A DNA stretch of 64,000 nt from Heptranchias perlo (Eukaryota). The notes beneath the pieces are model-generated. The model was given only the letters and a program-made list of their open reading frames with translations, made no database searches and was not told the origin of the DNA. Of this stretch, positions 24,580 to 29,001 are shown piece by piece; within the stretch, counting starts at the first letter, position 1, and every line of letters begins with the position of its first letter. The stretch covers positions 1,488,001 through 1,552,000 of the forward strand of contig NC_090358.1 of NCBI RefSeq assembly GCF_035084215.1, given 5' to 3'. The position numbers and the translations under genes were made by a program.

Positions 24580-27500
24580 TCACATCCCTCCACCATTGAC
24601 CTGGAGTCTCCACCAATTAAACAAACATTCATCTCCTCCACACTCTCCGCTGTCTTTCTCCCTTACCACCATACTTGGGATGCTTCACACCATCTCCAAC
24701 CTGTTCTCCGCTCCGGCTCCAAACTCTTTTGCCTCTTCCTGTGCTCTTTTCTCCTTCTGTTTCTTTCTCCTTCCGTTCTCTGGCGGTGTTCTCTGCCTGC
24801 TCTGCTCCACTCCGTCTTCCTGCTCCTTCTCCATCCTCCTCGTCCTTCAAGGGGCTTCCTTCTGCACGCTCGCAGCGGTTGGGGACTTTGTGACACCCAC
24901 CACAGCACTCTGCTCTACAGCTCCGAGCGATGGTAGCATAGTGGTTATGTTACTGGACTAAAATCCAGAGTCATGAGTTCAAATCCCGCCACGGCAGCTG
25001 GCGAATTTAAATTAAATTAACTAATTAAATTCAATTAATTAAATAAAAATCTGGAATTAAAACACTAGTATCAGTAATGGTGGCCATGAAATTACCGGAT
25101 TGTCGTAAAAACCCATCTGGTTCACTAATGTCCTTTAGGGAAGGAAGCCTGCCGTCCTTACCCGGTCTGGCCTATATGTGACTCCAGACCCACAGCAATG
25201 TGGTTGATTCTTAATTGCCCTCTGAAATGGCCCAGCAAGCCACTCAGTTGTAAAATCTCGCTACGAAAAGTCATAATAAGAATAAAACCGGACGGACCAC
25301 CCGGCATCGGACCACTAGGCACCGGACACGACAACGGCAAAACACCAAGCCCAGTCGACCCTGCAAGGTCCTCCTTACTAACATCTGGGGACTTGTGCCA
25401 AAATTGGGAGAGCTGTCCCACAGACTAGTCAAGCAACAGCCTGACATAACCATACTCACAGAATCATATCTTTCAGCCAACGTCCCAGACTCTTCCATCA
25501 CCATCCCTGGGTATGTCCTGTCCCACCGGCAGGACAGACCCACCAGAGGTGGCGGTACAGTGATATACAGTCAGGAGGGAGTGGCCCTGGGAGTCCTCAA
25601 CATTGACTCTGGACCCCATGAAATCTCATGGCATCAGGTCAAACATGGGCAAGGAAACCTCCTGCTGATTACCACCTACCGTCCTCCCTCAGCTGATGAA
25701 TCAGTCCTCCTCCATGTTGAACACCACTTGGAGGAAGCACTGAGGGTAGCAAGGGCACAAAATGTACTCTGGGTGGGGGACTTCAATGTCCATCACCAAG
25801 AGTGGCTCGGTAGCACCACGACTGACCGAGCTGGCCGAGTCCTGAAGGACATAGCTGCTAGACTGGGCCTGCGGCAGGTGCTGAGCGAACCAACACGAGG
25901 GAAAAACTTACTTGACCTCGTCCTCACCAATCTACCTGTCGCAAATGCATCTGTCCATGACAGTATTGGTAGGAGTGACCACCGCACAGTCCTCGTGGAG
26001 ATGAAATCCCGTCTTCGCACTGAGGACACCATCCAACGTGTTGTGTGGCACTACCACCGTGCTAAATGGGATAGATTCAGAACAGATCTAGCAGCTCAAA
26101 ACTGGGCATCCATGAGGCGCTGTGGGCCATCAGCAGCAGCAGAATTGTATTCCAGCACAATCTGTAACCTCATGGCCCGGCATATTCCTCACTCTACCAT
26201 TACCAACAAGCCAGGGGATCAACCCTGGTTCAATGAGGAGTGTAGAAGAGCATGCCAGGAGCAGCACCAGGCGTACCTAAAAATGAGGTGCCAACCTGGT
26301 GAAGCGACAACTCAGGACTACATGCATGCTAAACAGCGGAAGCAACATGCTATAGACAGAGCTAAGCGATTCCACAACCAACGGATCAGATCAAAGCTCT
26401 GCAGTCCTGCCACATCCAGTCATGAATGGTGGTGGACAATTAAACAACTAACGGGAGGAGGAGGCTCTGCAAACATCCCCATTCTCAACGATGGCAGAGT
26501 CCAGCACGTGAGTGCAAAAGACAAGGCTGAAGCGTTTGCAACCATCTTCAGCCAGAAGTGCCGAGTGGATAATCCATCTCAGCCTCCTCCCGATATCCCC
26601 ACCATCACGGAAGCCAGTCTTCGGCCAATTCGATTCACTCCACGTGATATCAAGAAACGGCTGAGTGCACTGGATACAGCAAAGGCTATGGGCCCCGACA
26701 ACATCCCAGCTGTAGTGCTGAAGACTTGTGCTCCAGAACTAGCTGCGCCTCTAGCCAAGCTGTTCCAGTACAGCTACAACACTGGCATCCACCCGACAAT
26801 GTGGAAAATTGCCCAGGTATGTCCTGTCCACAAAAAGCAGGACAAATCCAATCCGGCCAATTACCGCCCCATCAGTCTACTCTCAATCATCAGCAAAGTG
26901 ATGGAAGGTGTCGTCGACAGTGCTATCAAGCGGCACTTACTCACCAATAACCTGCTCCCCGATGCTCAGTTTGGGTTCCGCCAGGACCACTCGGCTCCAG
27001 ACCTCATTACAGCCTTGGTCCAAACATGGACAAAAGAGCTGAATTCCAGAGGTGAGGTGAGAGTGACTGCCCTTGACATCAAGGCAGCATTTGACCGAGT
27101 GTGGCACCAAGGAGCCCTAGTAAAATTGAAGTCAATGGGAATCAGGGGGAAAACTCTCCAGTGGCTGGAGTCATACCTAACACAAAGGAAGATGGTAGTG
27201 GTTGTTGGAGGCCAATCATCTCAGCCCCAGGGCATTGCTGCAGGAGTTCCTCAGGGCAGTGTCCTAGGCCCAACCATCTTCAGCTGCTTCATCAATGACC
27301 TTCCCTCCATCATAAGGTCAGAAATGGGGATGTTCGCTGATGACTGCACAGTGTTCAGTTCCATTCGCAACCCCTCAGATAATGAAGCAGTCCGAGCCTG
27401 CATGCAGCAAGACCTGGACAACATCCAGGCTTGGGCTCATAAGTGGCAAGTAACATTCGCGCCAGATAAGTGCCAGGCAATGACCATCTCCAACAAGAGA

Positions 27501-29001
27501 GTCTAACCACCTCCCCTTGACATTCAACGGCATTACCATCGCCGAATCCCCCACCATCAACATCCTGGGGGTCACCATTGACCAGAAACTTAACTGGACC
27601 AGCCATATAAATACTGTGGCTACGAGAGCAGGTCAGAGGCTGGGTATTCTGCAGCGAGTGACTCACCTCCTGACTCCCCAAAGCCTTTCCACCATCTACA
27701 AGGCACAAGTCAGGAGTGTGATGGAATACTCTCCACTTGCCTGGATGAGTGCAGCTCCAACAACACTCAAGAAGCTCGACACCATCCAAGATAAAGCAGC
27801 CCGCTTGATTGGCACCCCATCCACCACCCTAAACATTCACTCCCTTCACCACCGACGCACTGTGGCTGCAGTGTGTACCATCCACAGGATGCACTGCAGC
27901 AACTCGCCAAGGCTTCTTCGACAGCACCTCCCAAACCCGCGACCTCTACCACCTAGAAGGACAAGAGCAGCAGGCACATGGGAACAACACCACCACCTGC
28001 ACGTTCCCCTCCAAGTCACACACCATCCCGACTTGGAAATATATCGCCGTTCCTTCATCGTCGCTGGGTCAAAATCCTGGAACTCCCTTCCTAACAGCAC
28101 TGTGGGAGAACCGTCACCACACGGACTGCAGCGGTTCAAGAAAGCGGCTCACCACCACCTTCTCAAGGGCAATTAGGGATGGGCAATAAATGCTGGCCTC
28201 GCCAGCGACGCCCACATCGTGTGAACGAATAAATAAAAAAAAACTCAGCTCCGAGTGATGTGTCCCGACTCTCTGCAGTTAAAACAGAACAGGTCTGGAC
28301 AGTTTTATAAAAGGTGGTCACGTCCAGGACAATGGTAGGAAACCTTAACCTGGTAATTGTACTGCACTTCCTCCATCATCTCAAACTTCATTCTGTAAGG
28401 TAGAGGCCTTACCCCCTCTGGGAACCGCACCTTCACATAACGGGTTCCACTACTCCCCTTCCTGGGTAATGTCTGCTACTTCCAGCACCACAGATTTTAA
28501 TGTCCCACTGCTCCAGATTTTTTAATTAGGACTTCGTCCTTGATATAAAAATTTAAAAATGAGACCACCATCTCCTCAGAGAACAGTAGAGACACCTCCA
28601 GGATCTTACCTCCAACCTTAAACTCTCTAAAAGTCTTTCCAGCTTCCTTCCCAGTAGTCCTCATGCATGGCCTGGATAATATCCCAGGCTCTTATCCCCT
28701 TATCGTCACTGTGGTCCATCACCACATTCTCCGTCCCAAACCCTTGTGCCTCTTCTCCCTTCCCCCAACAATTTCTTCCCTGGTTAAATTCATCCCGGGA
28801 ACATCGTCCTCTGAGGGTCCCTACACTCCGACCCCTGCCCCCACCCCAGGGACACTTCGAGCCCACCCCGGCTGCTGTTTATAGAACAAAGACCCGCCAA
28901 AAAACAAATCAAAACTCACCACCAACTTTTTCCAACCTGATCTAACTCAAACCGCCCCCAGCTATCAAACACCAAACAGCACCCTCTCTCTCCACCCTCT
29001 C
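24580..29001 (-). mobile_element. Decayed Tx1-clade (L1 superfamily) 5'UTR + ORF1, Mutsu-like, split by the 3.3-kb LINE
   Basis: Minus-strand translation of ~28460-28246: GTRYVKVRFPEGVRPLPYRMKFE...QVKV..HC...H..*NCPDLFCFNCRESGHITRSC (CCHC knuckles of Tx1/ZCCHC3-type ORF1). It continues left of the TSD as RAECCGGCHKVPNRCE and an acidic/basic tail. The 5' end abuts 5S nt 22. Confidence 0.75.
24933..28243 (+). mobile_element. Full-length 3.3-kb single-ORF non-LTR retrotransposon (APE endonuclease + RT) with tRNA-derived 5' head; clade uncertain (CR1-group/RTEX-like)
   Basis: APE motifs (TNIWG, LTES, YRPP, GDFN, SDH) and RT motifs ([32 protein letters not shown]). A box TAGCATAGTGG 24934-24944, B box GTTCAAATCC 24977-24986, poly(A) tail. 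15-bp TSD cagctccgagYgatg at 24918-24932 and 28246-28260. In-frame ATG 25227, TAA 25251, 2-bp deletion at ~27500. Confidence 0.95.

What the first reader, a model, noticed from the sequence alone, without database searches (positions are those of the whole stretch)
24918..28260. Candidate Pol III-transcribed, protein-coding LINE: tRNA head and single APE-RT ORF in one TSD-bounded unit
Seen: a 15-bp TSD (cagctccgagYgatg, 24918-24932 and 28246-28260) encloses a tRNA-like head (A box 24934-24944, B box 24977-24986), a ~290-nt leader, one ORF and a poly(A) tail. Head and RT therefore inserted together, and there is no room for an ORF1. The ORF reconstructs from ATG 25227 to TAG 28176 (~983 aa) after repairing TAA 25251 and a 2-bp GA deletion at ~27500; the copies at 31180 and 47500 keep gagagag. 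It starts with an Arg-rich extension (RTTRHRTTRHRTRQRQ) ahead of the APE domain. Established: tRNA A/B-box promoters define non-coding SINEs, while LINEs normally use Pol II (R2 uses Pol I read-through). Inference: an autonomous retroelement driven by a Pol III promoter, blurring the SINE/LINE divide, and a possible parent of SINEs made by internal deletion.
Basis: partly seen in the sequence, partly recalled or inferred. Interest (0 to 1): 0.92.

Follow-up and report, generated by a model that had tools for sequence, protein, structure and literature searches.

The report
Shark LINE with tRNA promoter head
An abundant protein-coding jumping gene of sharks and rays begins with the tRNA-type promoter that normally drives short non-coding SINEs, lacks that polymerase's stop signals and lacks a normal start codon, so it may be a rare protein-coding RNA made by RNA polymerase III.

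Summary
The architecture is real and family-wide. The copy belongs to a young 3.3-kb family; its first 400 nt match, by eye, the elasmobranch Zenon LINE consensuses in the supplement of Stuart et al. 2026, which never mentions the head. 21 of 30 unselected copies holding the ORF start reach the head's first 13 nt, with no shared upstream extension. All 7 shark/ray consensuses start with the head; the 3 hagfish/coelacanth ones do not. 27 of 30 copies have no sense-strand TTTT over 3.24 kb, whereas 52 of 52 control LINE ORFs have some. Deletion-derived SINEs are common (19 of 50 head loci).

Corrections: TAA 25251 is no lesion (30/30 copies) and ATG 25227 is not the start; the intact 973-codon frame has no AUG before the endonuclease. 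A long TSD is seen only in this copy.

Pol III transcription is inferred (~0.6), not shown. An IRES-like non-AUG start is speculative (~0.2). [quoted passage not shown] The scan found this element before in two other genomes.

The parts
24918..24932 (+). left copy of 15-bp target-site duplication (1 mismatch); a long TSD is seen only in this copy among 30
24933..24996 (+). tRNA-derived head; lacks the first 6-7 nt of the family head and one of two 20-nt repeats
24934..24944 (+). A box; starts at nt 9 of full-length copies
24977..24986 (+). B box
24997..25250 (+). leader: AT-rich stretch, then ~170 nt almost unchanged between sharks and a ray; also forms the body of the derived SINEs
25198..25428 (+). 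76-codon upstream ORF in another frame, overlapping the main frame; no Pfam hit; open in 2 of 5 published species by eye; significance unknown
25222..25247 (+). hairpin with a 7-nt loop holding AGC; SINE deletions cluster just 3' of it; candidate anticodon mimic (speculative)
25251..25253 (+). TAA fixed in the family (30/30); marks the 5' limit of the reading frame, not a lesion
25260..25262 (+). GCT triplet present in all 7 published shark/ray consensuses, in frame with the ORF in 4 of 5 species by eye; candidate non-AUG start region
25254..27506 (+). 5' part of the single ORF: Arg-rich extension, APE endonuclease (~25380-25982), RT (~26835-27485); no AUG before the endonuclease
27484..28176 (+). 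3' part of the ORF, out of frame in this copy through a 2-bp deletion near 27497; ends at TAG 28174-28176
28177..28243 (+). 3' UTR with predicted stem-loop and A-rich tail; shared with the derived SINEs
28246..28260 (+). right copy of the target-site duplication
30777..31926 (+). 5'-truncated copy of the same family, 95% identical
37822..39228 (-). internal fragment of the same family, 95% identical; an 83% 3' piece follows at 37129-37601
47444..48220 (+). 5'-truncated copy of the same family, 92% identical

Best explanation
This is a broken copy of the elasmobranch Zenon LINE (CR1 group, no ORF1, poly-A tail), an autonomous family whose 5' end is a tRNA-derived A/B-box promoter. SHOWN: the head is the fixed 5' end; there is one APE-RT frame without an upstream AUG; the sense strand has no T4 run; SINEs made of head + leader + tail arose repeatedly by deletion. 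INFERRED: RNA polymerase III starts at the head and, meeting no T4 terminator, copies all 3.3 kb. The uncapped RNA is translated from a non-AUG site just after the conserved leader. The protein binds the 3' stem-loop of its own RNA and inserts it by target-primed reverse transcription. Any deletion of the ORF yields a ready-made SINE, because promoter and tail are already on one RNA.
For: 5' ends pile up at the head: 21 of 30 unselected copies reach within 13 nt of it, 11 exactly at nt 1, 8 nt ahead of the A box, with no shared upstream extension. All 40 scored hits were near full length at 97-100%; mean divergence from the majority is 0.87%; 13 of 30 have an intact frame. No T4 in 27 of 30 copies and none on the sense strand of L039 from 1286 to 4959. 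Expected T4 in the ORF: 5.3 with uniform synonymous codons (P 0.002), 3.2 with shuffled bases (P 0.03). T3 is 7 against 13 after codon shuffling (P 0.012); Phe codons TTT:TTC are 3:16. 0 of 52 metagenomic CR1-group ORFs lack T4, including five with T under 23% (4-8 runs); the genome's own CR1 ORFs have 7-11. All 7 shark/ray Zenon consensuses start with the head; in the 6 shark ones the A and B boxes vary only at the degenerate positions while the spacer diverges (by eye). The two canonical B-box 10-mers occur only in those 6 rows among ~900 rows of that table (first 400 nt searchable). 23 of the 40 displayed cross-species differences fall on third codon positions (hand count). SINE junctions vary, and some old SINEs keep the first ORF bases.
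Against: No transcript-level evidence: no holder is on record as RNA and contigs cannot show starts or strand. With the family's own codon usage kept, zero T4 is not significant (expected 2.1, P 0.09); the element is T-poor (19.5%) and no young C-rich L2 control was found in this genome. The ray consensus B box is one base short. 3.3 kb is far beyond SINE length, which Kojima 2024 ties to weak Pol III processivity. Non-canonical Pol III terminators exist (abstract of PMC3141230) and were not screened. How an uncapped RNA is translated is unresolved: the leader folds no better than shuffles (z 0.17), has no IRES match in Rfam and shows no compensatory change between old and young subfamilies.
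Confidence: 0.6

Rival explanations
1. The tRNA head is a captured SINE 5' end that is now a passive 5' UTR or Pol II element. The family is transcribed by Pol II from an internal promoter in the head or leader, like other LINEs.
For: Non-LTR elements are described as Pol II-transcribed (PMC10886601 passage). T4 absence is only P 0.09 under the family's own codon usage. A 76-codon AUG-led upstream ORF overlaps the main frame and could feed it by re-initiation or frameshift; one-base indels fuse the two frames in L047 and probably L121.
Against: A/B boxes are kept at consensus across shark lineages while the spacer drifts. 5' ends sit 8 nt ahead of the A box. T3 is also depleted and no control ORF lacks T4. 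The upstream ORF is open in only 2 of 5 published species and its frame relative to the ORF is not conserved (by eye).
Confidence: 0.2
2. Split labour: Pol III makes the RNA that is reverse-transcribed, while the protein comes from a different, capped Pol II RNA (read-through or spliced from host genes) of the same or other copies.
For: It would explain the Pol III signatures without needing translation of uncapped RNA. At least 3,160 copies hold the ORF start, so host read-through is likely. Host gene models include in-frame pieces of the ORF (P0001, P0006).
Against: There is no AUG ahead of the endonuclease, so a capped RNA would still need a non-canonical start. The third-position bias across species suggests that the transposing RNA carries a selected ORF, which fits cis preference.
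Confidence: 0.17
3. One-off SINE-LINE chimera or nested insertion at this locus.
For: This copy is unusual in having a long TSD and a shortened head.
Against: The same head-to-tail unit stands at 39 other scored loci, in 21 of 30 unselected copies and in published consensuses of 5 other species.
Confidence: 0.01

Closest known systems
Elasmobranch Zenon LINE (Stuart et al. 2026, PMC13343379; consensuses CarCar, HypSab, RhiTyp, ScyCan, SquAca Zenon)
   Same: The first 400 nt are near-identical by eye (closest to SquAca_Zenon-1); 3.2-3.3 kb, no ORF1, poly-A tail. This is almost certainly the same family.
   Different: The paper does not note the head: 'promoter' occurs 0 times in the main text, 'trna' 0 times in the search listing and in the supplement. 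The missing AUG, missing T-runs and derived SINEs were not in the passages I read.
tRNA-derived SINEs (SINE2), including bipartite LINE-derived SINEs such as Bov-tA (Kojima 2018, PMC5786205)
   Same: tRNA head with A/B boxes, LINE-type tail; short forms are head + 5' part + 3' end of the LINE.
   Different: Here the head sits on the autonomous coding element itself, so deletion alone makes the SINE. Kojima states that SINEs cannot encode a protein and lists only RTE, Ingi, Vingi and R2 as sources of bipartite elements.
RTE-1_DAn and relatives (Repbase; one sentence in Kojima 2018)
   Same: A LINE that holds a tRNA-like sequence.
   Different: RTE clade. Position, function and polymerase are not given in that sentence, and I could not see the sequence. 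It is the main threat to a claim of first instance.
Lepidopteran Zenon and its deletion derivative Persaeus (Wang et al. 2019, PMC6740152)
   Same: Single-ORF Zenon that spawns short internally deleted elements.
   Different: Persaeus has no tRNA, 5S or 7SL homology and no Pol III promoter.
TRIMp3 elements Cassandra, Helenus, Ajax (Kojima 2024, PMC10886601)
   Same: Retroelements outside SINEs with small-RNA-derived Pol III promoters.
   Different: Non-autonomous LTR elements of 0.3-1.3 kb without RT.
Dicistrovirus IGR IRES (described in PMC3894237 passage)
   Same: Cap- and AUG-independent start set by an anticodon-codon mimic; here a hairpin loop AGC could pair with the in-frame GCT.
   Different: No Rfam match, no further pseudoknots found, no covariation; works-like analogy only.

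Membership tests
Zenon (CR1 group) | no ORF1; single APE-RT ORF | tested here: met
Zenon (CR1 group) | poly-A tail (unique among CR1-group elements per Stuart et al.) | tested here: met
Zenon (CR1 group) | RT groups with named Zenon references | tested here: inconclusive
   No named Zenon protein could be loaded. The tree of 41 rows puts it in a 23-row clade (99/97) apart from the genome's canonical CR1s. Identity with the published Zenon rests on the first 400 nt read by eye.
SINE2 (tRNA-derived SINE) | tRNA-derived head with A and B boxes at the 5' end | tested here: met
SINE2 (tRNA-derived SINE) | non-coding, non-autonomous, 100-700 bp | tested here: not met
   3.3 kb with an intact 972-973-codon frame in 13 of 30 copies; only the ~0.43-kb derivatives qualify
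SINE2 (tRNA-derived SINE) | transcribed by RNA polymerase III | not testable with these tools
   indirect only; no usable RNA data
MetaSINE | 66-bp Meta-domain after the head | tested here: inconclusive
   No likeness by eye to the bivalve MetaSINE sequences in the supplement; the paper's Meta consensus is in a figure I could not see
Dicistrovirus-type IGR IRES | no AUG at the start of the frame | tested here: met
   first Met at residue 250
Dicistrovirus-type IGR IRES | multi-pseudoknot fold with anticodon-codon mimic, supported by covariation | tested here: inconclusive
   Hairpin predicted but z -0.6 to -0.8; leader z 0.17; no Rfam IRES hit at E up to 10; no compensatory change; the loop base before AGC is T19/C8/G3 in 30 copies

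The most novel reading that the evidence does not exclude
Sharks and rays have kept, since before their split, an autonomous LINE whose 3.3-kb RNA is a Pol III transcript and an mRNA at once. It is translated without cap or AUG through a tRNA-mimicking leader (hairpin loop AGC pairing with the in-frame GCT, as in dicistrovirus IGR IRESs) and it sheds SINEs by simple deletion.
Probability: 0.2. Interest if true: 0.95.

Novelty: new variant of a known kind. Interest (0 to 1): 0.78.

Why it matters
The working rule is that LINEs use Pol II and code for protein, while Pol III heads mark short non-coding SINEs. A successful LINE with a Pol III head that has lasted across sharks and rays would break that rule. 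It would give a natural 3.3-kb Pol III mRNA and a one-step route from LINE to SINE. Intact natural copies exist, so two open questions become directly testable: whether an animal Pol III transcript can be translated in quantity, and how AUG-less LINE ORFs start translation.

Tried and rejected
Repairing TAA 25251 or starting at ATG 25227: rejected. Programmed read-through or frameshift from the upstream ORF: no canonical slippery heptamer seen by eye, and the frame relation differs among species. TSD as family evidence: 1 of 30. A boundary-anchored test for short TSDs against a null was written but gave no output. An empty paralogous site for the window's TSD was sought; the only other match begins 178 nt into the flank. 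RNA evidence: no RNA holder listed; the four runs laid are contigs of guessed type and show no start, strand or level. A young L2 control in this genome was not found (best hits 73-77%); the 4 other families fetched were all canonical CR1-like. tRNA heads in distant relatives: ARAGORN 0 of 24 metagenomic loci, Rfam 0 of 6, no canonical B-box motif upstream in 52 ORFs; these contigs may lack true 5' ends. Leader as Meta-domain: no likeness by eye. Leader structure: not above shuffles, no covariation. Ruminski et al. 2011 was not held. Literature: nine answered searches plus one search listed no paper whose title or abstract describes a Pol III-driven autonomous LINE or a tRNA head on shark Zenon. 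Repbase, Dfam, Zenodo and most subscription journals were not searchable.
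Full report
OBSERVATION. The unit at 24933-28245 is as described in its landmarks: 15-bp duplication with one mismatch, A box 24934-24944, B box 24977-24986, APE and RT domains, A-rich tail. 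It is a damaged member of a large young family in a 3.25-Gb genome. A whole-element search gave 7,430 candidates; all 40 scored were near full length at 97-100%. Thirty of them (L031-L060, top scorers and so biased to young copies) differ from the majority by 0.87% on average, and 13 of 30 hold an unbroken 972-973-codon frame. The host is inferred to be a shark, from a shark protein that contains a piece of the ORF and from the match to published elasmobranch elements below.

TAA 25251 stands in 30 of 30 copies, and in 19 of 30 the ATG at 25227 runs into TAG at its third codon. The frame starts after the TAA and its first Met is residue 250, so the protein must start without AUG or by a route not seen here. 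Two distant relatives (P0014, P0015; 39-40% identity) begin with Met ~25 residues before the endonuclease, and P0015 has a similar Arg-rich extension, so the extension is probably real protein. The long TSD is special to this copy: 1 of 30 after removing L059, a tandem array. The 2-bp deletion is real (3 of 30). This copy also lacks the first 6-7 nt and a 20-nt repeat of the head.

THE HEAD IS THE FAMILY'S 5' END. A 24-mer from the start of the endonuclease has 3,160 exact matches (control 0). Of the first 30 along contig C1, chosen without regard to the head, 21 reach within 13 nt of the head's first base (11 exactly at nt 1). Nine stop at scattered places in head or leader, and none shares an upstream extension. 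A head motif has 2,187 exact matches; of 50 consecutive ones, 21 run into the ORF (one, L240, doubtful), 19 jump to the 3' tail and 10 do neither. The head scores 21.3 bits against Rfam tRNA, under the cut-off, and ARAGORN calls tRNA-Thr in 2 of 7 family loci.

IDENTITY. Stuart et al. 2026 (PMC13343379; I read the abstract, 12 of 25 passages, sections 13 and 43, and supplement rows cut at 400 characters) report Zenon elements in five elasmobranchs, without ORF1 and with a poly-A tail, not yet in repeat repositories. All 7 shark and ray consensuses in their Supplementary Table 2 begin with this head and leader; the 2 hagfish and 1 coelacanth consensuses do not in their first 400 nt and hold T-runs there (by eye). 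The two canonical B-box 10-mers occur only in the 6 shark rows among about 900 rows; one variant term hit one Rex1 row internally; the ray's B box is one base short. In the shark rows the boxes vary only at degenerate positions while the spacer diverges, as expected of a promoter still in use. The paper does not use the words promoter or tRNA. My RT tree of 41 rows (no rows dropped; no named Zenon available) separates the family from the genome's canonical CR1s.

T-RUNS. Pol III is thought to stop at four or more T, and also at degenerate signals (abstract of PMC3141230). 27 of 30 copies have no T4 from the B box to the tail (3.24 kb), and L039 has none on the sense strand over head and body. 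For the ORF, T4 expectation is 5.3 with uniform synonymous codons (P 0.002), 3.2 with shuffled bases (P 0.03) and 2.1 when the family's own codons are shuffled (P 0.09, not significant). T3 is 7 against 13 (P 0.012), and A, C and G runs are not depleted. Of 80 metagenomic CR1-group loci, 52 had an ORF of 600 aa or more; 0 of 52 lack T4 and their lowest T3 observed/expected ratio is 0.75, against 0.29-0.41 here. Four CR1 ORFs from this genome have 7-11 T4. Most controls are T-richer; only five have T under 23%, and no young L2 control was found.

DERIVED SINES. A pattern joining the leader's end to the tail within 25 nt has 34 exact matches with many different junctions. Among the 20 examined, the 5' parts are 76-97% identical to the young LINE. 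Some old ones keep the first bases of the ORF region, in the form seen in other sharks' LINEs (L247, L253, L260), which favours repeated deletion from a head-bearing LINE. Joints of the same kind appear in contigs from four organisms (15 of 839 rows shown). Whether the head first came from a tRNA or from an older SINE is not settled. In the same of the 40 displayed differences (of 328) fall on third codon positions by my hand count, against 13 expected, which points to selection on the frame.

MECHANISM. Best reading (0.6): Pol III transcribes the whole element from the head, the RNA is translated from a non-AUG site after the leader, and the protein retrotransposes it in cis. Steps shown are architecture, fixed 5' end, missing T-runs, missing AUG and SINE derivatives; polymerase and translation route are inferred. 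On the start site: the leader ends in a predicted hairpin (25222-25247) with a 7-nt loop holding AGC, followed after a variable linker by GCT (25260). GCT is present in all 7 consensuses and in frame in 4 of 5 species by eye. This recalls the anticodon-codon mimic of dicistrovirus IGR IRESs, whose possible presence in LINEs was raised in PMC3894237 (passages). Against it: the leader folds no better than shuffles, Rfam finds no IRES, old and young subfamilies show no compensatory change, and the loop base before AGC varies. I give it 0.2. Rivals are a passive head on a Pol II LINE (0.2) and Pol III template with protein from Pol II read-through (0.17).

PRIOR ART AND NOVELTY. [quoted passage not shown] Kojima 2024 (PMC10886601; passages) states the Pol II / Pol III division and ties SINE length to Pol III processivity. 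Wang et al. 2019 (PMC6740152; passages, supplement part 1 of 4) describe a butterfly Zenon whose deletion derivative has no Pol III promoter. I also read parts 1-3 of 6 and supplement part 1 of PMC4824008, part 2 of 6 of PMC5499810 (its supplements could not be seen and may hold shark SINE sequences), and passages of PMC3747384 and PMC11481361; none of what I read describes this element's head. Ten answered searches listed no report of a Pol III-driven autonomous LINE; Repbase, Dfam and most subscription journals were out of reach. Two earlier AI notes of this scan report the same architecture in other genomes; they are not independent support and did not name the family as Zenon. Verdict: known family, undescribed and unusual variant of LINE design; interest 0.78.

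Noticed in passing
window 23176-23760 (-) and 12470-12985 (-): First exon of a BTB/POZ gene (PF00651) in a GC-rich stretch, with a probable later exon near 12.5-13 kb (BTBD1/2-like by recall). The LINE copy sits about 1.2 kb upstream, head to head.
   Followed up: partly
Supplement of PMC6740152, Dataset S1: The longest butterfly Zenon 5' ends look by eye like an HDV-type ribozyme followed by a conserved structured leader (motif recalled, untested). If so, Zenon RNA may be uncapped in both lineages, which would have eased capture of a Pol III head.
   Followed up: no
window 25198-25428: A 76-codon upstream ORF overlaps the main frame. An internal ATG in this frame is present in the published consensuses of 5 species but reads ATA in this family.
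   Followed up: partly
window 25007-25047: AT-rich near-palindromic repeat after the B box; longer in the youngest subfamily than in older copies.
   Followed up: no
P0001, P0006: Two shark gene models (aldo-keto reductase, sushi-domain protein) contain in-frame stretches of this LINE's ORF; either annotation errors or exonised copies.
   Followed up: no
L093-L106, L107-L118: At least four canonical CR1-like families in this genome, two of them young (96-98% between copies) with intact ORF2 in some copies.
   Followed up: partly
G000:C12:29772666-30265583: Seven near-evenly spread, equal-scoring endonuclease hits within 0.5 Mb suggest a large tandem segmental array.
   Followed up: no
L119, L120, L129: Family copies inserted inside CR1 ORFs, in L120 in frame, giving an 813-codon hybrid frame.
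   Followed up: no
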